Shown here in pieces: positions 22,986 through 38,405 of a stretch of DNA of 64,000 nt. The stretch is from Acidimicrobiia bacterium (GTDB lineage: Bacteria; Actinomycetota; Acidimicrobiia; Spongiisociales; ZC4RG35): the NCBI GenBank assembly GCA_040880725.1, contig JBBDHV010000031.1, positions 9,652-73,651 on the forward strand, given 5' to 3'. Each line of letters begins with the position of its first letter. The first letter of the stretch is position 1. The notes beneath the pieces were generated by a model. It made no database searches. It was not told the origin of the DNA and saw nothing but the letters and a program-made list of their open reading frames with translations. A program made the position numbers and the translations under genes.

Positions 22986-22987
22986 CC

Positions 22988-23106: not shown

Positions 23107-23180
23107 CGGGACGTAGCGCAGCTTGGTAGCGCGCAGCGTTCGGGACGCTGAGGTCGTGGGTTCAAGTCCCACCGTCCCGA
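23107..23180 (+). tRNA. tRNA-Pro (anticodon CGG)
   Basis: Hand-folded cloverleaf: acceptor CGGGACG/CGTCCCG, D arm GCGC-AGCTTGGTA-GCGC, anticodon arm CAGCG-TTCGGGA-CGCTG, variable loop AGGTC, T arm GTGGG-TTCAAGT-CCCAC, discriminator A. 74 nt; CCA is not encoded. Confidence 0.9.
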
Positions 23181-23254
23181 CTCAGAGAAACACCAGGTCA
23201 GGGCCGCTCGATCGAGCGGCCCTCTGGTTTGTGAGGCCGGTTTCATCGCGCGTC
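23142..23254 (+). repeat. Direct repeat DR1 (tRNA-Pro 3' half + terminator + ~25 nt); putative att site
   Basis: Near-identical to 32564-32675. Identity begins inside the anticodon loop and runs through the T arm, acceptor 3' strand and terminator hairpin. Confidence 0.8.
23201..23230 (+). terminator. Rho-independent terminator of tRNA-Pro
   Basis: Perfect 9-bp stem GGGCCGCTC-gatc-GAGCGGCCC followed by TCTGGTTT. Confidence 0.6.
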
Positions 23255-23294
23255 GCGAAACCGTGATCCGGGCGGCGGACCGTACCATTCGCTC

Positions 23295-23597
23295 ATGGCA
23301 GGCCGCTCGACAGTTCTCAACTCTCTGATAGAGGCTCACCGAGCCGAGATTCGGGCCCTGTTGGAGCCGCACAACGCCCGTTCGATAGCGGTGTTCGGTT
23401 CGGTTGCGCGGGGCGAGGCAACGGTCGACAGTGACATCGACTTCCTCGTCGAGTTCGAGCCTGGGAGCTCGCTCTTGGATCTGATCCATCTCGAGGAGGC
23501 GCTCGGTGACCTTTTGGGCGTCGATGTCGACGTCATCTCGCTCGGAGCACTTCTCGAACGAGACGACGAGATCCGAAGCGACGCCGTCACGCTGTGA
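23295..23597 (+). CDS. Nucleotidyltransferase (MNT) antitoxin of a HEPN/MNT module
   Basis: FGSVARGEATVDSDIDFLVEF is the Pol-beta-like NTase GS...DxD motif. 100 aa, GTGA overlap with the downstream HEPN gene. Confidence 0.8.
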   Translation: MAGRSTVLNSLIEAHRAEIRALLEPHNARSIAVFGSVARGEATVDSDIDFLVEFEPGSSLLDLIHLEEALGDLLGVDVDVISLGALLERDDEIRSDAVTL

Positions 23598-23936
23598 GCC
23601 GATCCGACGTCCACCGCCTGGCCGACATGCTCATGGCGGCCGACGAGATCGCGGCGATTGTCCAGCGGGGACGGGATGCGTTCGAGGAGGAAGTGGTGTT
23701 GCGTCGCGCCGTCGAACGCTGCCTCGAGATCATCGGTGAGGCATCGAAGGCCATGTCGGGGGATCTCACTGACGCCTACCCCAAGATCCCTTGGTCCGAC
23801 ATGGCGAAGGTGCGTGATCGACTGAGTCATTGGCCATCACTACCACCGGATCGACCCCTCACAGCTGTGGACGATGGCGACACAAGACGTTCCGGCCGTC
23901 GTGAGACTCCTCCGGGAGGTGGAACGACGCCGATGA
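23594..23936 (+). pseudogene. HEPN (DUF86) toxin, frameshifted just after the Rx4-6H motif
   Basis: Frame 1 reads ...IPWSDMAKVRDRLSH, then runs into non-homologous sequence to 24148. The next frame continues HHYHRIDPSQLWTMATQDVPAVVRLLREVERRR and stops at 23934-23936, as expected for DUF86. Lesion is near 23828 (catTGGCcatcac). Confidence 0.65.
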
Positions 23937-23969
23937 TCCTGCGTACCCACCTTCGGAAGCGTCGGTTTC

Positions 23970-24245
23970 TCAGCCGGGCCGGTAGACGTTGCCACGATGT
24001 CCCACCCTCAACACGATCACCTCGTGGCGCTCGTCATCAATCCAATACAAGATTCGATACGTCCCGCGCCGGGCGCTCCACACCTTCAGTTCGCCTCGCA
24101 GGGGGGATCCGACCCACCTTGGACTGTCCGACAGGGGTCCGGTCATGAAGTCGATGACAGCGAATGCCACTGCCTCCGGCAGCACTTCGCGAATGGCCCG
24201 AGCGGCCGGGGCGGTGATGACGATCTCGTAGGGTCTGGCGCTCAC
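23970..24245 (-). CDS. RelE/ParE-family toxin
   Basis: GTG start (cac 24243-24245). 91 aa ending ...WSARRGTYRILYWIDDERHEVIVLRVGHRGNVYRPG, typical RelE/ParE. Confidence 0.8.
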   Translation of the reverse strand: MSARPYEIVITAPAARAIREVLPEAVAFAVIDFMTGPLSDSPRWVGSPLRGELKVWSARRGTYRILYWIDDERHEVIVLRVGHRGNVYRPG

Positions 24246-24399
24246 TGAGGCCGCAGGGCCTTCACAGCCTCGACACCACGCACCACATCGCCCGGAGCGA
24301 CTCAGTCGACATGGCCACAATTGTGCCACGCCGACTACAAGAATATGGAACAGCAACTCGAGCTCCGGTTCGCGAAATGAGCGGAGTCTGGGCTCGCTG

Positions 24400-24500
24400 G
24401 CTCGACCCTCCGGGCCTGTCTGGCTGGTGATGAGTCGGTCTGCGATGTCTTCAACGTCGAGACGTCCCTCCGCGACAGCCTGAACGAGCTGGATTGCTCA
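24400..24500 (-). pseudogene. Remnant of a doc toxin 3' end
   Basis: Minus-strand translation AIQLVQAVAEGRLDVEDIADRLITSQTGPEG parallels the C-terminus of intact Doc at 33793 (LDVAEGRLAVEQIAGRLITSQRSPKG). Nucleotide similarity to 33795-33900 is visible. Confidence 0.5.
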
Positions 24501-24575
24501 ATCATGACGCCTTGCGCCGTCGTGAGCAGTCGAGGTGCTCAGACCGCGATGGTGGCGCATGCGTAGATTGGGCCG

Positions 24576-27350
24576 GTGACTATTCGAAGCGCGATGCCGG
24601 TGGGAGTTTCGCCGTTCATCGGCCGCGAGCGTGAGCGTGTGAAGCTGGCCGAACTGGTGGCGGATGCCCGGGTGGTGACGTTGACCGGTTCGGGTGGCTG
24701 CGGAAAGACGCGGCTGGCAGTGGAGGTGGCGGGGGATGTGGCGTCGCGGTTTTTCGATGGGGCCCATTGGGTGGATCTGCAGGGGGTGAGCGATCCGGGG
24801 ATGGTTGCTCCGGTGATTGCCGCGGCGGTGGGGGTCCACGAACGACCCGACCAGGCGCAGGTCGACTCGCTGGTCGAGCAGTTTGGTGCACGGCACCTGC
24901 TGGTGGTGCTGGACAATTGCGAGCACTTGGTGGAGGTGTGCGCGGAGCTGGTCGCCGGGTTGTCGTCGGCGTGTCCGGGCCTGCACGTGCTGGCTACCAG
25001 TCGTGTGCCGCTCGTCGTCGACGGTGAGACGACGTTCGAGGTCGCTCCGCTGCCGGTGCCTGCCGCCGGCGCCCGCTCGGCGAGCAGCGTGGCGGGAGCG
25101 GATGCGGCGCGATTGTTCGAGTTGCGGGCCCGGCAGGTGGCCGCAGACTTTCGGATCGATGACGACAACGCGTCGGCGGTGGCTGAGATCTGTCGACGTC
25201 TGGATGGGATCCCGTTGGCGATCGAGTTGGCGGCGGTGCGGGTGCGGGTGCTGGCACCGGATCAGATCGCTGCGGGCCTGTCGGACCGGTTCGGACTGTT
25301 GACCGGTGGCCTGCGGGGTGCGCCGGCTCGTCAACGAACGCTGGAGGCATCGCTGGATTGGAGCTACTACCTGCTCGACGACGGACAGCAGTTGGCGTTG
25401 GCGAGGCTGTCGGTGTTCGCCGGCTCGTTCGAACTCGACGCGGCAGAGGCGGTCGTGGTCGGGAACGGAGGCGGCAGCAACGATGTGCTCGACCTAGTCG
25501 CCGCCCTGGTCGAGCAGTCGATGTTGGAGGTCGTCGAGCGCCAGGGCAGCGCCCGGTACCGGCTGCTGGAGACCATCCGGGCCTATGCCCGACAGCGCCT
25601 CTCCGAGCTCGGGGATCCCGCCGGGGCGCGTGATTGCCACCTGGCGTTCTACATCCGGCTCGGGGCGCGGGCCCACGCGGGCCTGAACGGTGGACAGCCT
25701 GAGCCCTGGATGGCGCGACTCGCCGCCGATCTGGATGATCTGCGGGCCGCCATGGACTGGGCGGCGGAAACGGGAGACCTGCGTGGACTGGTGGGGCTCA
25801 CCGAGCCGATCGTCCGCTTCTGGTTCGAGCGCGGCCTGGCTGGGGAGGTGCACCGCCGGCTGCACGACGCGGCCGATGCCCCAGGAATCTCAGATGAGGA
25901 GCGCGGGCGGGGTTTGATCACCGCGGCGGCCCTCGCCCTCGCCGCCAACGAGCCCGCCAGCGCCTATAGGTCGGCGAGCAGGGCGGTCGACGTGGCACGC
26001 GTGGCCGCTGTTAACGGTGCGCTCGCGGTCGCAGTGGGACAACGAGCCTTCTCGGGGGTGCTGTCGGGACTGGCGACCAGTGAACAGGTGAACGCCGACA
26101 TCGACGAGGCGGTCCAGCACGCGCAGCGGTGCGGAGACGCTCCGACTCACGCCTACGTGTTGGCGTTCGTCGGGGCAGCCCTTCTCCACAGCCGCTCGAT
26201 CGACGACGCGTGTGGCCTGTTCGAGCAGGCCGTCGAGGTGTGCGAGGCCAACGAGCTCGCCTTCCAACTGCCGGCCGCCATGGCGACGCTCGGACTGTGG
26301 CCGGTCTGGTCCGGTCGGCTCGACTGGACCCGAGGACACGCTCGGCGCACCATCGAGCTCAGCCGGCAGGTCGGACGACCTGGATGGGAGGTGTGCGGGC
26401 TCACCGGTCTGGGAGCGGCTGCCGTCCTGGCAGGCGACCACAGTCAGGCGCAGGAGTGGCTGTCCAAGGCGAGGGCAGTAGTCCAGAAGCACGCGTTGGA
26501 GGGATCCCAATACGGGATGTTCGTTCGGCCCTGGCTCGCACTATCGGCCTGCGTAACCGGTGATCTGAAGACTGCTCGGGCCACGGCTGCCGAGATCGTG
26601 CGGATCGGTCGTGGTGGCGGCAGCCGAGTGGACGAGGCGATGGGCGAGTGGCTGCTGGGCGTCCTGGCCCACGTCGAAGAGCGCCACGAGGATGCGCGAG
26701 CACATCTGACGACTAGCCGCTCGCTTTCGACCGATCCGCGGTTCCCGTTGCCGCTGGGTCGGTCGTTGTTGGGTCTCGCTGAGCTGGCCCAGGAGGACGG
26801 GGTCGTCGACGAGGCGTGGGAACTGGCCCACGAGGGTATGGAGGTTCTCGACGACTACGGCGACCGAGTGGGGGCGGCCGCCGCGTTGGAGCTGATCGCC
26901 GGCCTGGCCCTGGTTCACGGCGAGCCGGAGCGGGCGCTCCGCCTGTTCGCTGCGTCGCAACGGTTCCACACCGAGTCAGGCGTCGTCCGCTTCCCCCTCC
27001 AGGCCGACCGCTTCGAACGTGCCCATAACACCGCATGGGCCGAACTGGACCCCGTCGATGCGACCGCATGTTGGGACGCCGGCAGCGAGCTGTCACTGGC
27101 CGAGGCGCTCGCCTATGCCCGCCGTGGTCGGGGCGTCCGTCAACGCCCCCTGATCGGCTGGGCGTCACTGACCCCGGTCGAACGTGACATCGTGCGGCTG
27201 GTCGCCGAGGGCCACACCAACGCCAAGATCGGTGAACGTCTGTTCATCTCGCCCAACACGGTGAAGAAACACCTGACCCACGTCTACGCCAAGGTGGACG
27301 TCGACGGACGCGCCGATCTCGCCGCACAAGTCGCCCGCCGCGACCTGTAG
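24576..27350 (+). CDS. MalT/LAL-type STAND ATPase with TPR-like region and C-terminal LuxR HTH
   Basis: N-terminal FIGRERE...VVTLTGSGGCGKTRLA (P-loop) and LLVVLDNCEH (Walker B). A long helical-repeat middle region. C-terminal LTPVERDIVRLVAEGHTNAKIGERLFISPNTVKKHLTHVYAKV (LuxR/GerE HTH). Confidence 0.85.
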   Translation: MTIRSAMPVGVSPFIGRERERVKLAELVADARVVTLTGSGGCGKTRLAVEVAGDVASRFFDGAHWVDLQGVSDPGMVAPVIAAAVGVHERPDQAQVDSLVEQFGARHLLVVLDNCEHLVEVCAELVAGLSSACPGLHVLATSRVPLVVDGETTFEVAPLPVPAAGARSASSVAGADAARLFELRARQVAADFRIDDDNASAVAEICRRLDGIPLAIELAAVRVRVLAPDQIAAGLSDRFGLLTGGLRGAPARQRTLEASLDWSYYLLDDGQQLALARLSVFAGSFELDAAEAVVVGNGGGSNDVLDLVAALVEQSMLEVVERQGSARYRLLETIRAYARQRLSELGDPAGARDCHLAFYIRLGARAHAGLNGGQPEPWMARLAADLDDLRAAMDWAAETGDLRGLVGLTEPIVRFWFERGLAGEVHRRLHDAADAPGISDEERGRGLITAAALALAANEPASAYRSASRAVDVARVAAVNGALAVAVGQRAFSGVLSGLATSEQVNADIDEAVQHAQRCGDAPTHAYVLAFVGAALLHSRSIDDACGLFEQAVEVCEANELAFQLPAAMATLGLWPVWSGRLDWTRGHARRTIELSRQVGRPGWEVCGLTGLGAAAVLAGDHSQAQEWLSKARAVVQKHALEGSQYGMFVRPWLALSACVTGDLKTARATAAEIVRIGRGGGSRVDEAMGEWLLGVLAHVEERHEDARAHLTTSRSLSTDPRFPLPLGRSLLGLAELAQEDGVVDEAWELAHEGMEVLDDYGDRVGAAAALELIAGLALVHGEPERALRLFAASQRFHTESGVVRFPLQADRFERAHNTAWAELDPVDATACWDAGSELSLAEALAYARRGRGVRQRPLIGWASLTPVERDIVRLVAEGHTNAKIGERLFISPNTVKKHLTHVYAKVDVDGRADLAAQVARRDL

Positions 27351-27451
27351 TACCACCTGGCAGCGGAAACGTACCCGGTCGGGTGATGTTCTCCGACGCC
27401 CTATGCGGCATAGTCGCAGACATGACCGCAGGCGACCCCGGGAGACAGCAC

Positions 27452-28276
27452 ATGAGCACCCAACGCACCCACTACGTGACCACCACCGACGGCGTCACCA
27501 TCGGTGGAACCGTACACGGCGAGGGGCCTCCGCTCGTGTTCCTGCAAGGGTCCATCGGCGATGGAGACCTCGATTGGCAAGCTGTGGTGGGGCACATGAC
27601 CAGCCGGTTCACTTGCCATCTGCCGAGCATGCGAGGCCGTGGCCTCAGTAGCGACCACCCCGATCTCAGCTTCGGTCCGGTCGTCGAAGACTTCCTCGCG
27701 TACGTCGACAGCATCGGGGAACCAACCGGACTGGTGGGTTGGTCCGCCCCGTATGGACTTGTCGCAGCGGCGCAGTCAGACGCCGTGGCCGCGGTGGCCT
27801 ACTTCGAGTCTTCGATGCTGAGCCTGATGGACGAGCAGGAACATGTGACTGTCGGCGCCATCTTCGCCCGCACGGGCGAGCTGGCCGCCGAAGGCAGATT
27901 GGTGGATGCGGCCCGGGCTTTCGCTGGTTTTCCCTTCAATGATGAGGAGATCGCCGTGCTCGAAGGCGCCGGCTACCTCGAGGCCGCAGGGCGCTACGTC
28001 CCGAACCTGCTCAACCACCTCCAGAAGGTGATGGAGCAGGGAGACCCCATCGCTGATCCGGCCGTGCTTGACGCAATTTCCGTTCCGGTGTTGGTGCTCC
28101 ACGGATCGGACACCAAGCGACTCTTCGCCTCCAGCGCGCAGACTGTGACCGACCGCGTCCCCGACGCCCGGGAGCAGAAGATCGCCGGCGCCGGGCACGC
28201 CGGCCCCCTCACCCATCCCGAGGCGCTCGCCGAAGCCTTCGCGGAGTTCTTCTCGTCAATTCAACAGCCGGCCTGA
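27452..28276 (+). CDS. Alpha/beta-fold hydrolase (paralog A)
   Basis: Start at MSTQRTHYV. PPLVFLQGS, nucleophile elbow GWSAPYG, LVLHGSDT, GAGHAGPLTHP. By eye about 60% identical to 36634..37464. Confidence 0.8.
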   Translation: MSTQRTHYVTTTDGVTIGGTVHGEGPPLVFLQGSIGDGDLDWQAVVGHMTSRFTCHLPSMRGRGLSSDHPDLSFGPVVEDFLAYVDSIGEPTGLVGWSAPYGLVAAAQSDAVAAVAYFESSMLSLMDEQEHVTVGAIFARTGELAAEGRLVDAARAFAGFPFNDEEIAVLEGAGYLEAAGRYVPNLLNHLQKVMEQGDPIADPAVLDAISVPVLVLHGSDTKRLFASSAQTVTDRVPDAREQKIAGAGHAGPLTHPEALAEAFAEFFSSIQQPA

Positions 28277-28309
28277 CCCTGGTCACGGACCGGCCCCCAC
28301 TAGGGAGTA

Positions 28310-28768: not shown

Positions 28769-28815
28769 AATATGCGCGATGCCAACGCCCAGCGAGCACT
28801 TGGCGGGTTGGCCCC

Positions 28816-29298: not shown

Positions 29299-29574
29299 CG
29301 AACCTAATGCTCGCAGATAGAGACGAAGCACGTCCCGAAGCCGCTCGACTCCAGGAGAAGGGAAGTCGATCCGCGAGGCGAGGTCGCCCGAACGACGACA
29401 CCCTCGTTCGGCTCCACATCGCGCGTCCGTTGACGTCCACACCGATCCGCACGCGTCGCCGCAGCGCATTCAAGGTTGCGCTCTCGATCGGAAAGGCCGT
29501 CTCCTTCTCCCCTGGCCGGGACGATCACGGATTGCGTGCCCTTCCGTCACTATTTCGTATTACGATATTGTGAT

Positions 29575-29838
29575 GTGGAGATCCACTGGTCGGCTCGTAA
29601 GCACGGAAATCCTCGACGCCGTCATCCTCCACGCCTGGACAATGCCCTCACTGTCATCGACCTCGATCGAGACGCCGACCCACCCAAGGTTCTGGCAATC
29701 GGACCCGACCACTCCGGCAATTTGCTGGAGATCAGTTGGCTTGGGCTCGCCGACGACGTCAACCTCGTGATCCACGCAATGCCTCTACGCCCGACCGTCT
29801 ACGACCTGCTCCCACAGACCAGCGACGACATGCCGTGA
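29575..29838 (+). CDS. Putative small toxin component paired with an RHH antitoxin
   Basis: 87 aa from GTG: VEIHWSARKHG...LAIGPDHSGNLLE...LVIHAMPLRP. GTGA overlap with the downstream RHH gene. Preceded by AT-rich DNA and the palindrome TCGTAtTACGA (29555-29565). Family is not confidently named. Confidence 0.4.
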   Translation: MEIHWSARKHGNPRRRHPPRLDNALTVIDLDRDADPPKVLAIGPDHSGNLLEISWLGLADDVNLVIHAMPLRPTVYDLLPQTSDDMP

Positions 29839-30116
29839 CCGAACCGACGACCCATCGCACCAGAAGCGGCCGCATCCTCACCGACGAGGAGATCGACGCC
29901 CTCTCAGCCGAGGTCGCCGAGACCGACTACGACGCCGAGGCCCTCAAGACTCGGCGTCGGGGTCGACCCCCGATGGGGTCGGGTCCGGCCGATGTCGTGC
30001 CGGTTCGCATCGACCCCGAGTTGCGGGCGGCGATCGAAGCGCGCGCCAAATCCGAGCACACCACCGCCAGCGAGATCATCCGCGAGGCGATCCGGAGGTT
30101 CCTAGCGGTCGCCTGA
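29835..30116 (+). CDS. Ribbon-helix-helix (CopG-like) antitoxin
   Basis: ...RRRGRPPMGSGPADVVPVRIDPELRAAIEARAKSEHTTASEIIREAIRRFL shows the beta-strand-helix-helix pattern of RHH antitoxins. Confidence 0.6.
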   Translation: MTEPTTHRTRSGRILTDEEIDALSAEVAETDYDAEALKTRRRGRPPMGSGPADVVPVRIDPELRAAIEARAKSEHTTASEIIREAIRRFLAVA

Positions 30117-30189
30117 CCGAATGACAGTGGCTTCGGCTCGCCACGCATGGCGCGCATTCAGGCGTCCCACGCGACCTCGGCCAAGGTCG

Positions 30190-30320
30190 CGTCGGGGAAG
30201 GAACCGTTCGCCGAGGCGTTCTGCGACTTGACGGCCGGCTTCGGTGCTGGCCTGGGTGTAGATGCCCGAGGGTGGGCCTGGGGTCGGTGTGGCCGAGCCG
30301 GGTTCTGTTCGGATCGGGAG
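30190..30320 (-). pseudogene. C-terminal remnant of a tyrosine recombinase/integrase
   Basis: Minus-strand translation in two adjacent frames: ...NRTRLGHTDPRPTLG then IYTQASTEAGRQVAERLGERF. This resembles the LGH...T...Y (catalytic Tyr) box and tail of phage-type integrases. No N-terminal part is present. Confidence 0.45.
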
Positions 30321-30355
30321 AGCGGGTCTCGCGGAGGTTTCGAGCTAACCCAGAG

Positions 30356-31252: not shown

Positions 31253-32443
31253 ATGCAGCCTGACGCCTTCACATCGGATGAGCGTGGGACCGTGCGCCGG
31301 ACGCTCGACGGATACTGGGCGTTCTTTCCTCACCCGGTACCCCGGCGTCTCGACTTGTCTCCAGTCACGGTCAAGCTGCTGGACGAGGCAACCGGTGCAG
31401 TGCACCGTCTTGGAGGGGTGGGCAGGCTCGTACCCAATCCCCACCTCCTGATTGGCCCGCATCTTCGGTTGGAGGCGGTGCTGAGCTCGCGGATCGAAGG
31501 CACCAAGACCGACGTGTCCCAGCTACTCCGCTTCGAGGCCGGTCAGGTGCTCGGAGGCGAGGAGGCCGATGATGCACAAGAGGTTGGGAACTACGTGGTG
31601 GCGATGGAGCACGGCCTCCAACGGGCGGCCGAGGGGTTCCCGATGTCGGTGCGGCTGCTGCGTGAGATGCATGGGCTGCTCCTGTCGGGGGTTCGGGGTC
31701 AGCATCGACGGCCCGGTGATCTGCGAGAGTCACCGGTCTGGATCGGCGGGAGCACGCTCGAAAGTGCTGTGTTCGTTCCACCCCCTCCGGACGCGATCAG
31801 CGCGGCACTCACTGACCTGGAGCGATTCCTCCACGAGACCGACATGCCACTGTTGGTCCAACTGGCGATTGCTCACTACCAGTTCGAGGTCATCCATCCC
31901 TTCCTCGATGGGAACGGGCGAATCGGTCGTCTCCTGATCCCGGTGATGTTGGTGTTGCGGGGAGCCCTGACTCAGCCGCTGCTCTATCTGTCTGTCTACT
32001 TCAACCAGTACCGCACCCAGTACTACGACCATCTCCTGGCCACCAGCCAGAACGGCGACCTCACACCCTGGATCGACTTCTTTCTCCGTGGTGTTCGCCA
32101 ACAGGCACGCGACGCTGAAGAGAGGACCGTACGGCTCGTCGAACTCCAGTCGCGCCTCCGCAGCGAGCTGCTCGACGAAGGTCGGCCCAACTCAGTCGTA
32201 CGACTCGCCGACCAGCTCTTCTCGGTGCCGATCGTCACCGCGGCTCGAGTGGAGCACCTCCTCGGGGTCACTCGCCCAACTGCCCAGGCCGCCATCGATG
32301 CGCTCATGGAGCGGGGGGAGCTGGCCGAGGTCACCGGCCGGGAGCGAAACCGGATCTACGAGTCGTCCCGAATCTTTGACGCGGTGTATGGCCCCGTGGA
32401 GGTTCCAGAGGCTGCAGACAAGCCACGGCTCGACCTCGAGTGA
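31253..32443 (+). CDS. Class II Fic-family protein (AMPylase-like) with C-terminal winged-helix
   Basis: Fic motif HPFLDGNGRIGR and N-terminal inhibitory motif SSRIEG ((S/T)xxxE(G/N)). 396 aa. Confidence 0.9.
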   Translation: MQPDAFTSDERGTVRRTLDGYWAFFPHPVPRRLDLSPVTVKLLDEATGAVHRLGGVGRLVPNPHLLIGPHLRLEAVLSSRIEGTKTDVSQLLRFEAGQVLGGEEADDAQEVGNYVVAMEHGLQRAAEGFPMSVRLLREMHGLLLSGVRGQHRRPGDLRESPVWIGGSTLESAVFVPPPPDAISAALTDLERFLHETDMPLLVQLAIAHYQFEVIHPFLDGNGRIGRLLIPVMLVLRGALTQPLLYLSVYFNQYRTQYYDHLLATSQNGDLTPWIDFFLRGVRQQARDAEERTVRLVELQSRLRSELLDEGRPNSVVRLADQLFSVPIVTAARVEHLLGVTRPTAQAAIDALMERGELAEVTGRERNRIYESSRIFDAVYGPVEVPEAADKPRLDLE

Positions 32444-32563
32444 TCCATCGCGCGCCCATCGCGCGTGCACAGGCGTCTACGGCAGTCCGGAACAGTCTCC
32501 GCAGCGCTGAGACCTGGGGTTTCGGTCCGCAATGGTCCACCTCGATCCAAACCGGGAGCCTTT

Positions 32564-32675
32564 GGGACGCTGAGGTCATGGGTTCAAGTCCCACCGTCCC
32601 GACTCAGAGAAACACCAGGTCAGCCGCTCTTCGGGGCGGTCCTCTGGTTTTGTGAGGCCGGTTTCCCCGCGCGTC
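32564..32675 (+). repeat. Direct repeat DR2 (partial tRNA-Pro 3' half + terminator copy)
   Basis: GGGACGCTGAGGTCaTGGGTTCAAGTCCCACCGTCCCGACTCAGAGAAACACCAGGTCAG... matches 23142-23254 with a few substitutions and a rearranged terminator loop. Upstream sequence lacks an acceptor 5' strand and D arm, so this is not a functional tRNA. Confidence 0.8.
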
Positions 32676-32698
32676 CACCTTCCGAAGAGTCCGTTTTC

Positions 32699-32860
32699 TC
32701 AGCCGGGCCGGTAGACGTCGCCGCGATGTCCCACCCTCAACACGATGACCTCGTGGCGGTCGTCATCAATCCGGTAGAGGATTCGATACGTCCCGCGCCA
32801 GGCGCTCCACGCCTTCCAGCTCGCCTCGTAGAGAGGCTCCGACCCTCCCGAGATGAGGAC
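32699..32860 (-). pseudogene. relE/parE remnant (frameshifted, 5' part replaced)
   Basis: ...WSAWRGTYRILYRIDDDRHEVIVLRVGHRGDVYRPG matches the intact RelE at 23970. A 1-nt indel (ccttcCag vs ccttcag) breaks the frame upstream. Confidence 0.6.
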
Positions 32861-32906
32861 CGATGCCGTCCTTCTCGGCTGCATTGCGATTCGTTATGCT
32901 TTCCGT

Positions 32907-33155
32907 ATGACACAGCTCGTCGCCCGCATTGACAACGACCTGGCCGAGAGTATCGACCAGCTCGTCGCCGAAGGAGTCGTGGAATCTCGCTCGGACGCCG
33001 TCCGCAAGGGCCTCCAGGCGCTCATCGAACAAACCCGACGCCGCCGCACCGCTGAGGCGATCATCACCGGCTACACGGATCATCCCCAGACCGCAGACGA
33101 GGTCGCGTGGGCAGACCAGGCGACGGTACGGATGATCGCTGACGAACCATGGTGA
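32907..33155 (+). CDS. Ribbon-helix-helix antitoxin (MazE/CopG-like)
   Basis: MTQLVARIDNDLAESIDQLVAEGVVESRSDAVRKGLQALI. Overlaps the downstream PemK/MazF gene by 7 nt. Confidence 0.7.
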   Translation: MTQLVARIDNDLAESIDQLVAEGVVESRSDAVRKGLQALIEQTRRRRTAEAIITGYTDHPQTADEVAWADQATVRMIADEPW

Positions 33156-33460
33156 CACCCCGCCAAGGCGACATCTGGTGGGCCGAAGCCGAAGACAAGC
33201 GGCGACCTGTTCTGGTGGTGTCACGGTCCGAAGCCATCCCCGTGCTCAACTGGATCCTGGTCGCGCCCCTCACCCGAACCATTCGCGGCATCCCGACCGA
33301 AATCCATCTCGACCAAGACCACGGTGTCGACACACCCTGCGCGGCTGCCTTCGACAACCTCCAGCCCATCGGCAAGACATTCCTGACCTCACGAATCGGC
33401 TCGTTGCCGTTTCCGCGCCAAGAGATCTGCCGGACGCTCGCAGCCCTGGCCGACTGCTAG
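33149..33460 (+). CDS. PemK/MazF-family toxin
   Basis: PRQGDIWWAEAEDKRRPVLVVS...LVAPLTRTIRGIPTEIHL... is characteristic of MazF/PemK. Confidence 0.85.
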   Translation: MVTPRQGDIWWAEAEDKRRPVLVVSRSEAIPVLNWILVAPLTRTIRGIPTEIHLDQDHGVDTPCAAAFDNLQPIGKTFLTSRIGSLPFPRQEICRTLAALADC

Positions 33461-33592
33461 CGACGCTGTCGCCAGCGGGCGCCGGCGGTCGGCTCGTTGG
33501 ACTGATCTGGTCGACGTTGACTACTGGCCGGGCCGAGCCAAGCCCATTGGACGCCTGGGTCACCTGTCGATGGCTTGCCCGTTGTGCCGATC

Positions 33593-33762
33593 GAGCTCGA
33601 GTGGAGCACCTCGTCGGGGGCACTTGCCCAACTGCCCAGGCCGCCATCGATGCCCTCGTAGAGCGGGGGGAGCTGGCCGAGGTCACCGGCCGGGAGCGCG
33701 AAACCGGATCTACGAATCGTTCCGAATCTTTGACGCGGTGCACGGCCCCGGGGAGGTTACGT
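33593..33762 (+). pseudogene. Remnant of fic 3' end
   Basis: Nucleotide and amino-acid similarity to 32243-32410 (VEHLVGGTCPTAQAAIDALVERGELAEVTGRER vs VEHLLGVTRPTAQAAIDALMERGELAEVTGRER). A 2-nt indel (gggagcgCGaaacc) breaks the frame. Confidence 0.6.
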
Positions 33763-33792
33763 CGTGGGCGAAGCTGGCGTCCCGTGCGCTGA

Positions 33793-34176
33793 TCAGCCCT
33801 TCGGGGATCTCTGGCTGGTGATCAGCCGGCCCGCGATCTGTTCAACGGCGAGCCGTCCCTCGGCGACGTCGAGAACGAGTCCGAATGCCTCGTCGTCACC
33901 GAGATCGACGTTCTCCCCGTTGATGTCCAGGAAGACGGTGGTCGCCAGCCATCCGAGACGCTTGTTCCCGTCCACCAACGAGCGATTGGCCACTATCGAG
34001 TGCAACAGTGCCGCCGCTTTGAGTTGGAGAGTCGGATACGCATCGTCTCCAAATGCACTCGAACGAGGTCGGGACGCCGCAGAGTCGAGAAGGCCCAGAT
34101 CTCGTACGGGCCCGGCGCGAAGACGGCGCACGAGACCGAGGAGGTCTTCGAGCGTGAGATACTCGACCTCGGTCAC
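33793..34176 (-). CDS. doc: Doc (death-on-curing) family toxin
   Basis: Fic/Doc core HSIVANRSLVDGNKRLGW. GTG start with GTGA overlap on the upstream antitoxin stop. Confidence 0.85.
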   Translation of the reverse strand: MTEVEYLTLEDLLGLVRRLRAGPVRDLGLLDSAASRPRSSAFGDDAYPTLQLKAAALLHSIVANRSLVDGNKRLGWLATTVFLDINGENVDLGDDEAFGLVLDVAEGRLAVEQIAGRLITSQRSPKG

Positions 34177-34388
34177 ACCGAGCCGAGTCGATCGAGGACG
34201 TCGCCCCACCGCTCGATCATCCGATCGGTGCTGTCGGCAGCCTTCCTGGCATGACCAGCACGCTCGTATCGGTCGAGGACCGCCCGCCGGATGATCTCCT
34301 GCCTGGACAGGCCCTCATTCTTGACGAGCTCGTCGAGAACCCGTTCGAGTTCTTCGTCAGTACGAAGTGTGAACGCCATGGGCCGCAT
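34173..34388 (-). CDS. Phd-position RHH antitoxin
   Basis: MAFTLRTDEELERVLDELVKNEGLSRQEIIRRAVLDRYE shows the RHH pattern. Translationally coupled to doc. Confidence 0.7.
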   Translation of the reverse strand: MRPMAFTLRTDEELERVLDELVKNEGLSRQEIIRRAVLDRYERAGHARKAADSTDRMIERWGDVLDRLGSV

Positions 34389-34507
34389 GGTATCACAACG
34401 GTATCGTCCACGATCGGACGGCCCGGGGGTTCAGGCCGAACGCACCAGGCGAAGTGCATCACGGATGGACAGAGATCATCTCAGTCCTGCCTGGCCGGGG
34501 GTAGTGG

Positions 34508-35488
34508 TCACCCGGGAGGAGGGACCGTCGGCGCGCCAGGTTCCTGAGCGATGCGTTCATCTACGACCATCACGAAGACGGCACCCCACTGCAAGTCGAC
34601 AACGGGTTGGTAGCAATCGGAGACGAGGCGCTGATCCACCGATGTGAACTCGACGCGGAGCCAACTCGTCCCGAGGTTCTTCACGGCTTCATCAGCGAGG
34701 GCACTGGCTTGCTCGTAGTCGAAGCAGTGGTTGTGGGACGCTCCCGTGAGGGCAATCTCGAGATGGCGGGTCCGGTTGATCTTGTCCAGATCGAGGTCGT
34801 CAGTCAGAACGACCTCGTTGGTCGTGTCGAGCACCTCCGTGGCGCAATCCGCCTGCCAGCCGAGCACAACAGGAAAGCCCGGATGTGTCTCGTCGACATC
34901 ACCTGAGAGCACCCGGAACTCACCGCTGTCCAGCCACTGCTCGTACTCCGTTCTGGCGAAGACTCCGCGGCAGAAGGTGAGTGTTTCAGGTGGAGCATCC
35001 AGCATCCGCGCCGAGTCGTTGCCTGTCGCGCACTCGTCTGTGAGTGCCTCGAACGAGAGGTCCTCTTCGATGGGGAACTCCGATGCCAGGGTGTCCGCCC
35101 CCGGCCCGCCCTCGTGGAGACACCACACGGCCTCACTTCGGAGAGAGTGTCGCCACCCGGGGAGATGGACCTCCGCTGACGCGTCGGTGAGTGCGTCGAA
35201 GACGGCGAAGTCGTCGTTGTCGAGGGTGAGCCAGCTCGGGTCGATGGTCCATACGGGCGCGCTTGGTGCGGGAGCTCCACCGGCGACATCACCGTCGGAA
35301 GTGCGGGTCGACAGCATCGGCAGGACGAAGAGCGCCATGACGGATGCGAAGGCCGCGACAGCGGCGACGAGTTTCGGCGTTGGTCTGCGTCGGCGGGCTG
35401 CGACGATTTCCCCGACTCGTCGATTGACTTTCGTGGACTCGGCGACGCGGTCGAGTGTTTCCCGGAGACGATCGTCCAGGTCGTTCAT
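34508..35488 (-). CDS. Putative anti-sigma factor: single-pass membrane protein with Cys-containing extracytoplasmic domain
   Basis: ATGA overlap with the ECF sigma stop. N-terminal cytoplasmic helix, TM VAAVAAFASVMALFVLPML, and a ~260-aa outside domain with 6 Cys and no recognisable family. Confidence 0.45.
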   Translation of the reverse strand: MNDLDDRLRETLDRVAESTKVNRRVGEIVAARRRRPTPKLVAAVAAFASVMALFVLPMLSTRTSDGDVAGGAPAPSAPVWTIDPSWLTLDNDDFAVFDALTDASAEVHLPGWRHSLRSEAVWCLHEGGPGADTLASEFPIEEDLSFEALTDECATGNDSARMLDAPPETLTFCRGVFARTEYEQWLDSGEFRVLSGDVDETHPGFPVVLGWQADCATEVLDTTNEVVLTDDLDLDKINRTRHLEIALTGASHNHCFDYEQASALADEAVKNLGTSWLRVEFTSVDQRLVSDCYQPVVDLQWGAVFVMVVDERIAQEPGAPTVPPPG

Positions 35489-36012
35489 GTGCTCAGTTCC
35501 CTCCTCATTGACAGGTGTCCCCGATGGATCAGGGAGCGGACGGTGGGTGGACGTACGTGCATCACCTCGGCGATCTCGTCGACTGACAGATCGGCGTAAT
35601 AGCGCAGGACAAGGGCAGTTCGTCGCTTGACCGGGATTCGTGACAAGGCAATCCAGACTTGGTCGAGCTCCGGCGGGAGGTCGGCGGTGGAAGCGTCCAT
35701 CGGATGCCTTGCTTCGAGGACGCGGCGCCTCACGACCGACCTCGACCGGTTGACGACCGCTCGATACAAGTAGCCGTGGTGGTCGTCGATCCGGTCCCAC
35801 CTTCGGTAGGCAGCCACGAACACGTCGTGCACCACGTCCTCGGCCGCTGAGTTGGAACTCGTGATCAGGTGAGCCAGCCGCACCAAACGGGGCAGCGCGG
35901 ACTCGTAGACCTCTCGGAACCCGCCGACAGTCTGCTCAGCGTCGAACCCGTCGCCGATCCATGGCGAGGCTGGAGTCGCCGCCTTTTTCGTGCTCATACC
36001 CTCACGACGCAC
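35485..36012 (-). CDS. ECF-type sigma-70 family sigma factor
   Basis: Region 2 AEDVVHDVFVAAYRRW...YLYRAVVNR. Region 4 RTALVLRYYADLSVDEIAEVMHVRPPTVRSLIHRG. Confidence 0.85.
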   Translation of the reverse strand: MRREGMSTKKAATPASPWIGDGFDAEQTVGGFREVYESALPRLVRLAHLITSSNSAAEDVVHDVFVAAYRRWDRIDDHHGYLYRAVVNRSRSVVRRRVLEARHPMDASTADLPPELDQVWIALSRIPVKRRTALVLRYYADLSVDEIAEVMHVRPPTVRSLIHRGHLSMRRELST

Positions 36013-36120
36013 AAGTCATCGAGAATGTTGCAGGCAGTTTCCAAGCAGCAGCACGAATCCAGGGAATCAGCGCCTCTCAGGTCACCCGCACTCGCTCTCC
36101 GTTTGAACTCGGCCACGACA

Positions 36121-36537
36121 TCATTGGTGGTGTCTGCGCGTGTCGTGCCGGTGTGACCCGTGGGCTTTCCACAGCAGGTAGATCGCCGGTAGCTGCGTGA
36201 CGCCGTATGCGAAATGGGCGAGGTGGTGGCCGAGACTCTGGTCAGGCACGAAAGGCCACACGGGAAGCGGGACGATGCTGAGGATGGCGCCGACCAGGAG
36301 GTTGATGCCGATCCAGACGAGGGTGGCCCACCACAGTGTTCGGCTCCGGTCGAACCACCACCAGCCCATGAGCGCGATGGTGGGCAGGACTGCACTGGCG
36401 GTCTCGGGCGACGCGGTTCCCATTCCCTCGGTCACGTTGTGAAACCAGGCTCCGACCGCGGCGATCGCCAGGGCACCGACCATCGATTCACGTCGTGCCG
36501 TCATCGGCACTTTCTCCAGTGCGGCGGGATGAGACAT
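36121..36537 (-). CDS. Small polytopic membrane protein of unknown function
   Basis: Terminal 138 aa of ORF 36121..37026, with 3-4 hydrophobic segments (LAIAAVGAWF, LPTIALMGWWWF, LVWIGINLLVGAILSIV). The upstream part of the ORF is antisense to the hydrolase gene. Confidence 0.45.
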   Translation of the reverse strand: MSHPAALEKVPMTARRESMVGALAIAAVGAWFHNVTEGMGTASPETASAVLPTIALMGWWWFDRSRTLWWATLVWIGINLLVGAILSIVPLPVWPFVPDQSLGHHLAHFAYGVTQLPAIYLLWKAHGSHRHDTRRHHQ

Positions 36538-36633
36538 GGCGTTGTTCCAGAGATCGACGAGTGAGCGGTCGAGGCCCGTTCTCGGCCCCCCTCGTATGGT
36601 GGCACTCACGACACACGACATGTGGGAGAGCGG

Positions 36634-37464
36634 ATGAGCAGCCAGCGCACGCATCACGGGACTTCCACCGACGGCGTCAGCATCGGCGGGACCGTGCACG
36701 GCCAAGGGCCGCCGCTCGTGTTCTGGCACGGTGCCTATGGCGATGGCGACCTTGATTGGCAGGCCCTGCTGCCGCATCTCACAGACCGGTTCACGTGCCA
36801 TTTGCCGAGTTGGCGAGGCCGTGGCCTCAGTGGCGACCATCCCGACCTCAGCTACGGCCGGCGCGTCGACGACGTCCTCGCCTACGTCGACAGTCTCGAG
36901 GAACCGACTGGACTCGTGGCCTGGTCCGGCGGTGCCAGCCCGGCTCTTGCCGCCGCGGCCCAGTCCGATGCGGTGAACGCCGTGGCCCCTTTCGAGCCCA
37001 CGATGGGAACCGTGATGGACGAGCACGACGGCGCGGCCATGCGCGTCGCCGTCGCCACCATGGGCGAACTGGCCGCACAGGGCAGGTTGACGGATGCACT
37101 ACGCGCGGCCGCCGACTTTCCCTTCACCGACGAGGAGGTCGGCGTGGCCGAGGACACCGGCTACTTCGCGGCCGCGGGGCGCTACGTCCCGAACCTGCTC
37201 GACGCCTTTCGGCAATTGATGGACTACGAAGGCCCGGTCGCCGATGATCCTTCCGTGCTGGCCACGATCTCGGCGCCCGTGCTCGTGCTGCACGGGGCGG
37301 AGACGAAGCCTTTCTGGATCCGGAGCGCGCGACACGTCGCTGACCACGTCCCCAACGGTCGGATACAGGAGATCCCCACCGCCGGGCACGCCGCCCCGCT
37401 GACCCATCCCGAGGCGCTCGCCGGAGCACTCACCGAGTTCTTCATGGTCGGCCGGGGAGGGTGA
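36634..37464 (+). CDS. Alpha/beta-fold hydrolase (paralog B)
   Basis: MSSQRTHHGTSTDGVSIGGTVHGQGPPLVFWHG..., elbow AWSGGAS, LVLHGAETK, TAGHAAPLTHP. Collinear with 27452..28276, including about 40 nt of upstream sequence. Confidence 0.8.
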   Translation: MSSQRTHHGTSTDGVSIGGTVHGQGPPLVFWHGAYGDGDLDWQALLPHLTDRFTCHLPSWRGRGLSGDHPDLSYGRRVDDVLAYVDSLEEPTGLVAWSGGASPALAAAAQSDAVNAVAPFEPTMGTVMDEHDGAAMRVAVATMGELAAQGRLTDALRAAADFPFTDEEVGVAEDTGYFAAAGRYVPNLLDAFRQLMDYEGPVADDPSVLATISAPVLVLHGAETKPFWIRSARHVADHVPNGRIQEIPTAGHAAPLTHPEALAGALTEFFMVGRGG

Positions 37465-37533
37465 CGACGACCACGGGCATCTGGTTCGTTCCGGCGACGC
37501 GGTTCGCACCCACGGTGGGAACTGTCCCGATGG

Positions 37534-38001
37534 ATGGCGTTCATGGTTGATCGCAGTTGGTTCACCGGGCGGCGGCTCATCATCGGTCTCGGCATCGTTC
37601 TGACGGCCAGTGTGTTGGCGGTGTGGGTCTGGTGGACTGCACCCGACCGTGAACTCGCCGCCACCCTCAACGAGGTGGAGTTGCCCGCCGGCCTGACGTA
37701 CCTCGGAGCCGAGCAGCAAGGGGATCGCATGTGCTTCTTCGACAACTGTCCTCGCCTCACCCGCTACTACGGGTCTGATCGCGAACCGACCGAGCTGTCT
37801 GCTCTCGTGCAGGACGAGTTGCCGGAACTCGAGGAGAGTTCCCCCCTGGGATCGGTGTGCTCCTACCGGCTCAGGGATCTGTCTGGCCGTGCGGTATTTC
37901 TCCTTGTCCGGGAGCCGATCTCGGAGATTCCTCCGGAGAACGAAAATGATTTGATCGAATCACGCCCGTCGACATTCCACACCAGTCTGTCCTCTACCTG
38001 A
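37534..38001 (+). CDS. Membrane-anchored hypothetical protein
   Basis: 155 aa. N-terminal TM LIIGLGIVLTASVLAVWVWW. No recognisable domain. Confidence 0.4.
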   Translation: MAFMVDRSWFTGRRLIIGLGIVLTASVLAVWVWWTAPDRELAATLNEVELPAGLTYLGAEQQGDRMCFFDNCPRLTRYYGSDREPTELSALVQDELPELEESSPLGSVCSYRLRDLSGRAVFLLVREPISEIPPENENDLIESRPSTFHTSLSST

Positions 38002-38039
38002 CGATCCGCGGCTGATCGCCATGGGGGCCACCGGCCGTC

Positions 38040-38405
38040 TCACACCGTCAGGCGAACGACCCAGCGATGCTTGCCGATCATCCGATCCCGGGTGAATCCC
38101 AACTCCTGATAGGTCGACAACGCCCCGTTGAAGAGGAATCCTGCCGGAACCGAACCTGCAGGCTCCGGGTAGCCTTGCACGACGCCCCCTCCCAAATCGG
38201 CGATCAGGGTCAGTGCTCCGGAGAGAGCGTCGCGGGACACGCCTTGGCGCCGGTGTCCTCGCCGGACGTAGAAGCAGGCGATCCGCCAGTCGCGCTGGGT
38301 CGTCACGGTCTTTTCGTATGCAGCCCTGCTCTTGATTCTCGGAAGTTCGTCGAAAGGTCCGAACTGGCACCATCCCACGCCCGGGCGGTCTTTCCACGAA
38401 CCCAA
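38040..38405 (-). CDS. GNAT-family N-acetyltransferase (short)
   Basis: WRIACFYVRRGHRRQGVSRDALSGAL...YQELGF fits the GNAT motif A region. Confidence 0.55.
   Translation of the reverse strand: MGSWKDRPGVGWCQFGPFDELPRIKSRAAYEKTVTTQRDWRIACFYVRRGHRRQGVSRDALSGALTLIADLGGGVVQGYPEPAGSVPAGFLFNGALSTYQELGFTRDRMIGKHRWVVRLTV

What the first reader, a model, noticed from the sequence alone, without database searches (positions are those of the whole stretch)
23107..38405. Two tandem, decayed islands without an intact integrase at tRNA-Pro(CGG), split by a 112-nt repeat of the tRNA 3' half plus its terminator
The last 39 nt of tRNA-Pro (from inside the anticodon loop) plus about 75 nt downstream, including the terminator hairpin, recur at 32564-32675. 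The intact tRNA copy is at 23142-23254. The 5' half of the tRNA is absent from the second copy. This is the signature of site-specific integration into a tRNA 3' end.

Downstream of each repeat the same building blocks reappear in a different order and state. These are relE (23970 vs 32699), doc (24400 remnant vs 33793 intact), fic (31253 intact vs 33593 remnant) and alpha/beta hydrolase paralogs (27452 vs 36634). The only recombinase trace is a ~40-codon integrase C-terminus at 30.2-30.3 kb.

This ~15-kb tract sits between cyclophilin/tRNA and glgB, which I presume to be core. It is the clearest accessory region in the window and the most likely place for a non-housekeeping system.
Basis: partly seen in the sequence, partly recalled or inferred. 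Interest (0 to 1): 0.7.

Follow-up and report, generated by a model that had tools for sequence, protein, structure and literature searches.

The report
Decayed integrated-element array at tRNA-Pro
Downstream of a proline tRNA gene in an uncultured Acidimicrobiia bacterium lie the worn-down remains of small integrating mobile elements, now mostly toxin-antitoxin and regulator genes, which is a familiar kind of genomic island rather than a new system.

Summary
The repeat is real. The 3' 40 nt of tRNA-Pro(CGG) plus about 75 nt downstream (23135-23254) recur at 32557-32675 at 88-96% identity. There is no 5' half and no third copy.

Relatives show what made it. In related Acidimicrobiia contigs the same tRNA end abuts an intact 373-aa tyrosine integrase, with Xis. 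One relative carries a complete 4.9-kb element bounded by the same ~100-nt repeat.

The window keeps four traces of such elements:
- the last ~45 integrase codons (30171-30306, minus strand, frameshifted);
- the element's left end (repeat plus MNT/HepT);
- two copies of its right 'P arm' (29417-29467 and 32444-32556).

So 23.25-32.68 kb is a decayed tandem array of at least two such elements. It now holds toxin-antitoxin genes, a SoFic-type Fic, a LuxR-STAND regulator and hydrolases.

The stretch 32.68-37.5 kb repeats part of that cargo in the same order but has no att or integrase trace of its own. It could be an older third element or resident flank.

The variable tract really runs to 52.5 kb. 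The closest relatives go from tRNA-Pro to the NfeD-SelBA core in 1-4 kb, so the glg operon lies inside the tract.

This is a known kind of feature, well resolved, of modest interest.

The parts
23107..23181 (+). tRNA-Pro(CGG), intact; the integration target
   Evidence: ARAGORN; Rfam RF00005, 67 bits
23135..23254 (+). attL-type repeat T. It runs from the anticodon stem-loop to the tRNA 3' end, then a terminator hairpin (23200-23223) and one 11-mer CATCGCGCGTC (23244-23254).
   Evidence: homologous to the tRNA-side att of L094, L100 and L101
23295..23597 (+). MNT-type nucleotidyltransferase antitoxin, intact. It occupies the same position next to att in relatives L094, L095 and L100.
   Evidence: Pfam NTP_transf_2 8.7e-14; 91% aa to L100 MNT; PADLOC PDC-S09
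23594..23926 (+). HepT toxin pseudogene, frameshifted just after the RDRLSH motif
   Evidence: Pfam HepT-like covers residues 13-79 only; comparison with the intact 111-aa L100 HepT
23947..24245 (-). ParE/RelE-like ORF (91 aa, 23970-24245) with no partner antitoxin. Its 3' part (23947-24118) is 88% identical to 32675-32848.
   Evidence: Pfam ParE_toxin, C-terminal third only
24406..24497 (-). doc C-terminal remnant
   Evidence: 80% nt to the 3' end of the intact doc at 33797-33879
24576..27350 (+). 924-aa STAND NTPase-TPR-LuxR (LAL-type) regulator
   Evidence: Pfam GerE, NB-ARC, TPR_MalT
27383..28276 (+). alpha/beta hydrolase, paralog of 36622-37464
   Evidence: Pfam; 62% aa identity
28310..28768 (+). 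SRPBCC / polyketide-cyclase-like protein
   Evidence: precomputed Pfam PF10604 on the identical gene of L081
28816..29227 (-). GNAT acetyltransferase pseudogene, split over two frames
   Evidence: Pfam Acetyltransf_3 on the 74-aa fragment; translations
29417..29540 (+). Internal remnant of an element right arm (P arm), starting with CATCGCGCGTC. No tRNA-derived core follows it.
   Evidence: 29417-29467 is 82% identical to the L101 P arm, E=3.5e-7; z=17 against shuffles and third-best hit in the window; weaker alignment continues to the GCCGGGA core edge
29575..30116 (+). 87-aa protein of unknown family plus a 93-aa ribbon-helix-helix protein (overlapping genes). Putative toxin-antitoxin pair lying between att and the integrase 3' end.
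   Evidence: RHH_1 4e-6; no family for the 87-aa protein in Pfam, PADLOC, PHROGs or NCBIfam
30171..30306 (-). Tyrosine-integrase C-terminal remnant (residues 326-370 of 373, including LGHTDPRxTL..IY), with one frameshift near 30266
30356..30943 (-). Protein of unknown function with a hydrophobic N-terminus (lipoprotein-like by eye)
   Evidence: No hit in Pfam, PADLOC, PHROGs or NCBIfam
31253..32443 (+). Fic protein (Fic_N + Fic + HTH), SoFic-type
   Evidence: Pfam; PADLOC SoFic 6e-109 over nearly the whole profile
32444..32556 (+). Element right arm (P arm) with tandem 11-mers CATCGCGCGCC CATCGCGCGTG at 32446-32467
   Evidence: 80% identity over 197 nt to L101's distal att plus arm; alignment; motif scan
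32557..32675 (+). attR-type repeat T': tRNA 3' half without the 5' half, plus terminator hairpin
32675..32884 (-). parE C-terminal remnant, directly abutting T'
32853..33460 (+). RHH antitoxin plus MazF/PemK toxin, both ORFs intact
   Evidence: Pfam; NCBIfam ParD-like for the RHH protein
33595..33758 (+). fic 3'-end fragment, 92% identical to 32243-32404
33793..34388 (-). Doc toxin (33793-34209) plus RHH antitoxin (34173-34388), intact
   Evidence: Pfam; NCBIfam DOC_P1
34508..36012 (-). ECF sigma factor (35485-36012) with a downstream unknown protein. Calling it an anti-sigma factor is inferred from position only.
   Evidence: Pfam Sigma70_r2/r4; no family for the partner
36622..37464 (+). alpha/beta hydrolase, paralog of 27383-28276
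37534..38380 (.). 156-aa gene (+) and a truncated GNAT-like gene (-). Both are shared with the tRNA-Pro flank of relative L090, so this is older flank rather than part of the decayed elements.
   Evidence: 75% and 82% nt identity to L090 4718-5182 and 7007-7347

Best explanation
**What it is.** The tract is a decayed tandem array of small integrative elements. They insert into the 3' half of tRNA-Pro(CGG) using a lambda-type tyrosine integrase.

**How the intact element works (seen in relatives).** It is about 4.9 kb. Read in the window's orientation, its order is:
1. tRNA side att;
2. an optional toxin-antitoxin cassette;
3. Int and Xis, both transcribed toward the tRNA;
4. a SEC-C-motif protein and two unknown proteins;
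5. the P arm;
6. the distal att.

Its attP carries a copy of the tRNA from the anticodon loop to the 3' end, plus its own terminator. Tandem 11-mers (CATCGCGCGTC) sit on both arms. Integration rebuilds the tRNA from the element's copy and leaves the displaced 3' half at the far end.

**State in the window.** At least two such elements sit head to tail between 23135 and 32675.
- Unit A (23255-29540) keeps attL, MNT and a broken HepT, and a right-arm remnant.
- Unit B (29541-32675) keeps a toxin-antitoxin pair, the last 45 integrase codons, a right arm and attR.
- Int, Xis and the backbone genes are gone. What persists is cargo: toxin-antitoxin genes, a SoFic-type Fic, a LuxR-STAND regulator and hydrolases.
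- 32676-37500 carries colinear paralogs of unit A's cargo. It is either a still older sibling or the resident flank.

**Shown.** The repeats, the integrase remnant, arm homology to an intact element, and near-empty sites in relatives.

**Inferred.**
- Crossover occurs in the anticodon loop.
- The 11-mers are arm-type Int sites.
- The order of arrivals.
- The array could still be excised in trans, like a CIME (cis-mobilizable element).
- The toxin-antitoxin genes stabilise it.
For: 1. The repeat starts in the anticodon stem-loop and lacks the 5' half.
2. Relatives L094, L095 and L100 have the same tRNA end, repeat and MNT/HepT followed by an intact 373-aa integrase: Phage_integrase 4e-17, Phage_int_M, SAM_3.
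3. Window 30171-30306 is that gene's last ~45 codons.
4. L101 holds a complete element: a 100-nt direct repeat 4944 nt apart encloses Xis (HTH_17) and Int next to tRNA-Pro.
5. L101's distal att plus arm is 80% identical over 197 nt to window 32444-32639.
6. A second arm fragment lies at 29417-29467: 82% identity, z=17.
7. Tandem 11-mers recur on both arms in the window, L094, L100 and L101.
8. The closest relatives, L091 and L090 (cyclophilin 88-89% identical), go from tRNA-Pro to the shared core in 1.06 and 3.97 kb, against 29.3 kb here. Another relative has DarTG, ArdA and a type I R-M system there.
9. The hairpin of copy 2 resembles that of relatives more than copy 1 does. That fits copy 2 being the displaced resident 3' half.
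10. Tandem AICEs sharing one att, and att-flanked integrase-less CIMEs, are documented precedents (PMC2440964; PMC5704250).
Against: - No att, arm or integrase trace marks the far end of 32676-37500.
- No remnant of Xis, the SEC-C protein or the 391-aa protein survives in the window.
- There is no compositional contrast with the core.
- Unit B lacks its own tRNA-derived core after the 29417 arm.
- L090 has the 75-nt extension with tandem 11-mers but no element. That part could therefore be native sequence rather than an element scar.
- A second assembly of the same species has a 100-N gap at window 30352, 46 nt from the end of the integrase remnant.
- All comparison sequences are metagenome contigs or MAGs. 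Nothing has been tested experimentally.
Confidence: 0.8

Rival explanations
1. There was a single integration. 23255-32556 is one element that later grew by internal insertions and lost most of int. 32676-37500 is ordinary resident flank. The colinear paralogs (parE, doc, hydrolase) arose because the element captured flank DNA from a related host by aberrant excision, in a specialised-transduction-like way, or by intragenomic duplication.
For: - In L095 the MNT/HepT segment is followed within 43 nt by the integrase stop. Relative to it, window 23940-30171 looks like a 6.2-kb insert.
- That insert begins with the same parE remnant that abuts T'.
- 32676-37500 has no element hallmarks.
Against: - The arm fragment at 29417-29467 lies inside the supposed insert. 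It is most simply a second element end.
- The closest relatives L090 and L091 have no counterpart of 32676-37500 next to their tRNA-Pro, so it is not conserved resident flank.
Confidence: 0.15
2. The pattern arose from segmental tandem duplication by unequal or illegitimate recombination, with no recombinase. A ~9.4-kb segment starting in the tRNA was duplicated and the copies then diverged.
For: The shared blocks are colinear with spacings of 8.7-9.4 kb.
Against: - The left edge of the repeat falls at the anticodon loop, exactly as in the distal att of an intact integrase-bearing element.
- The sequence left of T' is that element's arm.
- Identities range from 74% to 92%, which does not fit one event.
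- The second copy lacks most of the first.
Confidence: 0.03
3. It is an assembly artefact. Strain mixtures in the metagenome were stitched into a tract that no single genome contains.
For: Another assembly of the same species breaks at 34852-35005 and has a 100-N gap at 30352. Short contigs end near the tRNA.
Against: - That independent assembly is 99.6-99.9% identical to the window across 12200-30351, 30353-32888 and 34852-50418. This covers both repeat copies and the glgB junction.
- A Logan contig also spans 37.5-41 kb.
Confidence: 0.02

Closest known systems
Integration modules of actinomycete integrative elements (AICEs such as pSAM2, which targets a Pro-tRNA gene) and actinophage tyrosine integrases
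   Same: A tyrosine integrase plus Xis. attB overlaps the tRNA 3' end and the gene is restored after integration (PMC2440964). The relatives' integrase is 29-34% identical to Gordonia and Arthrobacter phage integrases and to the integrase of the AICE pMR2.
   Different: No Rep or FtsK-like Tra genes in the window or in the 4.9-kb L101 element. The element is half the size of the smallest AICEs. The repeat is 100-120 nt and includes a terminator and arm motifs. The host is an uncultured Acidimicrobiia lineage.
Tandem AICESav3708/AICESav3728 at one Arg-tRNA gene of Streptomyces avermitilis, and the S. coelicolor island flanked by a 43-bp repeat at a Pro-tRNA
   Same: Successive integrations into the same restored tRNA gene leave an att copy between units. 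Islands then grow by further insertions (PMC2440964).
   Different: Those elements keep their integrases. Here only 45 codons remain, and one internal att core is missing.
CIMEs (cis-mobilizable elements) and site-specific accretion, described for ICESt1/ICESt3 of Streptococcus thermophilus
   Same: [quoted passage not shown] Tandem structures arise by integrating, decaying, then integrating again (PMC5704250).
   Different: Mobilisation has not been shown here. The phylum and integrase family differ. No conjugative partner has been identified.
Defence/toxin-antitoxin islands at tRNA hotspots
   Same: The cargo is dominated by type II toxin-antitoxin modules (MNT/HepT, ParE, MazEF, Phd/Doc) and a SoFic-type Fic. 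A relative carries DarTG and a type I R-M system at the same site.
   Different: Several toxins are broken (HepT, parE twice, doc once). No defence function has been tested.

Membership tests
tRNA-targeting tyrosine-integrase integrative element / genomic island | Direct repeat made of the tRNA 3' part at both ends, with an intact tRNA at one end only | tested here: met
tRNA-targeting tyrosine-integrase integrative element / genomic island | Integrase gene next to an att site | tested here: met
   The window has only a 45-codon frameshifted remnant. Intact gene in the same position in L094, L095, L100 and L101.
tRNA-targeting tyrosine-integrase integrative element / genomic island | Presence/absence variation at the same site in relatives | tested here: met
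   1.06 kb (L091) and 3.97 kb (L090) against 29.3 kb between the tRNA and the shared core
tRNA-targeting tyrosine-integrase integrative element / genomic island | Excision to a circle with attP and a restored attB | not testable with these tools
   Needs read-level data or an experiment
CIME (cis-mobilizable element) | attL and attR retained | tested here: met
   T and T' are 88-96% identical and the right arm is present
CIME (cis-mobilizable element) | Integration and transfer genes lost | tested here: met
   No Phage_integrase domain in six frames; no Xis or backbone remnants
CIME (cis-mobilizable element) | Excised or mobilised by a related element's Int/Xis | not testable with these tools
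   No experiment possible. No intact sibling integrase within this 64-kb window.
AICE (actinomycete integrative and conjugative element) | Replication (RepSA/RepAM) and FtsK-like transfer modules | tested here: not met
   No such Pfam domains in the window tract or in the L101 element
Prophage | Virion structural or packaging genes | tested here: not met
   No PHROGs hits with a function for 10 proteins without a Pfam family assignment (3 window, 7 from L101/L094). Pfam hits in the window tract are all non-structural. The tRNA 3'-half pattern is absent from viral contigs.
Type II toxin-antitoxin modules (cargo) | Adjacent small toxin and antitoxin genes with matching family domains | tested here: met
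   Intact: RHH-MazF and RHH-Doc. Degraded: MNT intact with HepT frameshifted, parE twice, doc once.
SoFic defence protein | Full-length match to the SoFic profile; anti-phage activity | tested here: inconclusive
   PADLOC SoFic 6e-109, profile positions 5-357 of 361. Activity not testable.

The most novel reading that the evidence does not exclude
The 4.9-kb Int-Xis-SEC-C elements are a previously undescribed family of minimal integrative elements in Acidimicrobiia. The short interval between their tRNA-side att arm and the integrase stop codon acts as a collecting point for toxin-antitoxin or defence cassettes:
- empty in L101;
- MNT/HepT in L094, L095 and L100;
- an unknown 87-aa protein plus RHH in window unit B;
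- MNT/HepT plus parE and more in unit A.

Repeated accretion and decay of these elements would then have built a 29-kb plastic tract that even took in the 14-kb GlgE-pathway glucan operon.
Probability: 0.12. Interest if true: 0.5.

Novelty: new member of a known kind. Interest (0 to 1): 0.3.

Why it matters
This is a clean worked example of how a tRNA-linked island forms and decays in a poorly sampled phylum. It comes with the matching live element, its integrase, its Xis and both att arms identified in relatives. That gives a testable integrase/att pair for uncultured Acidimicrobiia.

It also explains why toxin-antitoxin and Fic genes pile up here. And it corrects the local map: the variable tract is 29 kb and includes the glg operon. 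None of this changes how such islands are understood.

Tried and rejected
- **Pfam on ORFs and on six-frame translations of 28760-31270.** No integrase at E<=1. This was a false negative, overturned by comparison with relatives.
- **Third att copy near 38 kb.** None, using blastn-short and a 3-mismatch pattern.
- **GC and tetranucleotide deviation.** No usable signal; correlation to the core is 0.85-0.93 for the units, within the range of other windows.
- **Scan of viral contigs for the tRNA 3' half.** No hits.
- **glgB as the core boundary.** Rejected. Relatives with 80% identical GlgB have unrelated genes upstream and no tRNA. Core synteny resumes at 52513.
- **L090's alpha/beta hydrolase as ortholog of 36622-37464.** Rejected.
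- **An 11-mer copy at the right edge of the MNT/HepT segment as a cassette recombination site.** Rejected. Relatives show that the segment ends a few bases earlier and that the match straddles the boundary.
- **tblastx of relatives' islands against the tract.** Only noise beyond what blastn had already found.
- **Look-ups of my own glgB and treZ-like ORF calls.** Failed because my start codons differed from those on record.

Full report
**Observation**

The window has a single tRNA gene, tRNA-Pro(CGG), at 23107-23181. Its 3' part and the following ~75 nt recur at 32557-32675.
- Identity is 88% over 121 columns including gaps, and 96% over the first 67 nt.
- The last 23 nt of the tRNA are identical in both places. 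No shuffle of the window gives even one such match.
- Similarity starts in the anticodon stem-loop. Nothing resembling the 5' half precedes the second copy.
- Both copies carry a terminator-like hairpin.
- Relaxed searches find no third copy anywhere in the window.

**Anatomy of the tract**

In the second copy it runs without a break into a parE C-terminal remnant (32675-32848). In the first copy the two parts (23135-23254 and 23947-24118) are separated by 692 nt that encode an MNT antitoxin and a HepT toxin.

Further shared blocks follow in the same order:
- a doc remnant against an intact doc (80% nt);
- two alpha/beta hydrolases (74% nt, 62% aa).

A 162-nt fic 3' fragment (92%) is the only block out of order.

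Pfam, PADLOC and NCBIfam scans give this gene content:
- MNT and HepT. HepT is frameshifted just after its RDRLSH motif.
- A ParE-like ORF.
- A doc remnant.
- A 924-aa STAND-TPR-LuxR regulator.
- A hydrolase.
- An SRPBCC protein.
- A split GNAT pseudogene.
- An 87-aa protein of unknown family with a ribbon-helix-helix partner.
- A protein of unknown function.
- A SoFic-type Fic (PADLOC 6e-109).

After the second repeat come a parE remnant, RHH-MazF, the fic fragment, RHH-Doc, an ECF sigma factor with an unknown partner, a hydrolase and two small genes.

**Organism and relatives**

The window belongs to an uncultured Acidimicrobiia lineage. An NCBI MAG (GCA_040904385.1) covers it at 99.6-99.9% identity.

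In the two closest relatives found (cyclophilin 88-89% identical), tRNA-Pro is followed by only 1.06 kb (L091) or 3.97 kb (L090). A conserved block of response regulator, NfeD, WhiB, SelB, SelA and FxsA then begins. In the window that block starts at 52513.

So the variable tract is 23255-52512, or 29.3 kb.
- Window 37542-38380 is homologous to genes in L090's short flank.
- The glg/GlgE-pathway operon (38513-52484) sits where L090 has 268 nt.
- Relatives with 80% identical GlgB have that operon in other contexts.
- A more distant relative (L092, 77%) has DarT-DarG, ArdA and a type I R-M system after the same tRNA.

The site is therefore a hotspot, and glgB is not the core boundary.

**What made the repeat**

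A metagenome scan for the tRNA 3' end plus its downstream sequence returned six contigs. In L094 and L095 the tRNA, the repeat and MNT(/HepT) are followed directly by an intact 373-aa tyrosine integrase: Phage_integrase 4e-17, with Phage_int_M and SAM-like N-terminal domains.

The last ~133 nt of that gene are 87-89% identical to window 30172-30304 on the minus strand. At protein level, residues 326-338 and 339-370 match in two adjacent frames at 78-85%, including LGHTDPRxTL and the IY of the catalytic tyrosine.

The integrase family is common in Acidimicrobiia MAGs.
- L100 shows Xis(HTH_17)-Int-HepT-MNT-tRNA.
- L101 holds a complete element. A 100-nt direct repeat (87-98% identity) with copies 4944 nt apart encloses a 391-aa protein, a 65-aa protein, a SEC-C-motif protein, Xis and Int. 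One copy overlaps tRNA-Pro.
- L101's distal repeat and the ~115 nt beside it are 80% identical over 197 nt to window 32444-32639.

The sequence left of the window's second repeat is therefore that element's right arm.

Tandem 11-mers (CATCGCGCGTC) occur in this arm and at the outer end of the tRNA-side repeat in the window, L094, L100 and L101. I take them to be arm-type integrase sites. That is an inference.

L091's tRNA is followed immediately by unrelated sequence. This suggests the 75-nt extension, terminator included, is element-derived rather than universal native flank.

**Composite structure**

A second right-arm fragment lies at 29417-29467. It is 82% identical to the L101 arm (E=3.5e-7, z=17 against shuffles) and is the third-best hit in the window after the true arm. 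A weaker alignment continues to the GCCGGGA edge of the core. No tRNA-derived core follows it. Instead come the 87-aa/RHH pair and then the integrase remnant, which is the order expected at a junction between two tandem elements.

I therefore read 23255-29540 and 29541-32675 as two units (A and B).

The stretch 32676-37500 has no att, arm, integrase, Xis or backbone remnant. It is tied to unit A only by colinear paralogs. It may be an older sibling element, or resident DNA from which unit A's cargo was captured. I cannot separate these two.

**Mechanism**

By analogy with lambda-type integrases and actinomycete integrative elements (PMC2440964):
1. Int recombines attP with the tRNA at the anticodon loop.
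2. The element's copy of the 3' half, with its terminator, rebuilds the gene.
3. The displaced 3' half ends up at the far end.

The hairpin of the window's second copy is closer to those of relatives than the first copy's is, which fits this.

Repeated integration into the restored tRNA, followed by deletion of Int, Xis and the backbone, gives the present array. Toxin-antitoxin genes and a Fic are what remain. With attL, attR and one arm still recognisable, the tract meets the sequence definition of a CIME (PMC5704250). Mobilisation is untested.

**Comparison and novelty**

The integrase is 29-34% identical to actinophage integrases and to that of the AICE pMR2. Neither the window nor the 4.9-kb element has the Rep or FtsK-like Tra genes that define AICEs, and no phage structural genes were found. 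This is a new member of a known kind: a decayed tRNA-linked island with tandem accretion. The small Int-Xis-SEC-C element family may not have been described, but it works in a familiar way.

**Caveats**
- All relatives are metagenome contigs.
- The other assembly of this species has a 100-N gap at window 30352, 46 nt from the end of the integrase remnant. It also has a contig break at 34852-35005.
- Composition gives no support either way.

Noticed in passing
window 38381-52512: The 14.1-kb glg/GlgE-pathway operon (glgB to treS-mak) lies inside the tRNA-Pro variable tract. Relative L090 has only 268 nt at this position. The block truncates a GNAT-like gene: 38040-38380 is the C-terminal 113 codons of L090's 189-aa gene. 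Relatives carry the operon elsewhere.
   Followed up: partly
window 38431-38492 and 52513-52575: The sequences upstream of glgB and upstream of the first core gene after the operon are roughly 74% alike by eye over ~60 nt. Each has GTTTCG-N14-GGGTAG/T, the shape of a SigB-type promoter (PMC8346170), followed by a similar ribosome-binding region. This forms an imperfect direct repeat flanking the glg block. The glgB upstream regions of relatives share only the promoter shape.
   Followed up: partly
window 30352; window 34852-35005: GCA_040904385.1 (99.6-99.9% identical) has a 100-N scaffold gap exactly between two copies of GAGCTAACCC at window 30342-30362. Its two contigs also overlap and end at 34852-35005, inside the unknown gene next to the ECF sigma factor. 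These may be strain-variable or hard-to-assemble spots.
   Followed up: partly
L100 5293-5802; L101 11206-11714: In these relatives tRNA-Pro is on the opposite strand and directly abuts the response-regulator/NfeD core, with cyclophilin not adjacent. The tRNA and its island tract are inverted relative to the window, L090 and L091.
   Followed up: no
L092 11130-20783; L093 4012-7302: A relative (cyclophilin 77% identical) carries DarT-DarG, ArdA and a type I restriction-modification system downstream of the same tRNA-Pro. It also shares window 23255-23356, the start of the MNT segment.
   Followed up: partly
L101 6205-11248: A complete 4.9-kb integrative element whose three non-recombinase proteins (391 aa, 65 aa, 165 aa with a SEC-C motif) have no informative family hit in Pfam or PHROGs. 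How it replicates or transfers is unknown.
   Followed up: partly
window 29575-30116: An 87-aa protein with no family hit in four libraries overlaps a ribbon-helix-helix gene by 4 nt. It occupies the slot where relatives have MNT/HepT. It may be a toxin of an undescribed family.
   Followed up: partly
window 23244-23254, 29417-29427, 32446-32467: The four closest matches to CATCGCGCGTC in the 64-kb window (two exact, two in tandem with one mismatch each) all lie at att or arm positions; the fifth hit at one mismatch is on the minus strand at 24586-24596, at the start of the LuxR gene. The overall count at one mismatch is not above chance (5 against 6.6 expected). The signal is in their placement and tandem arrangement, which L090, L092, L094, L100 and L101 share.
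   Followed up: yes
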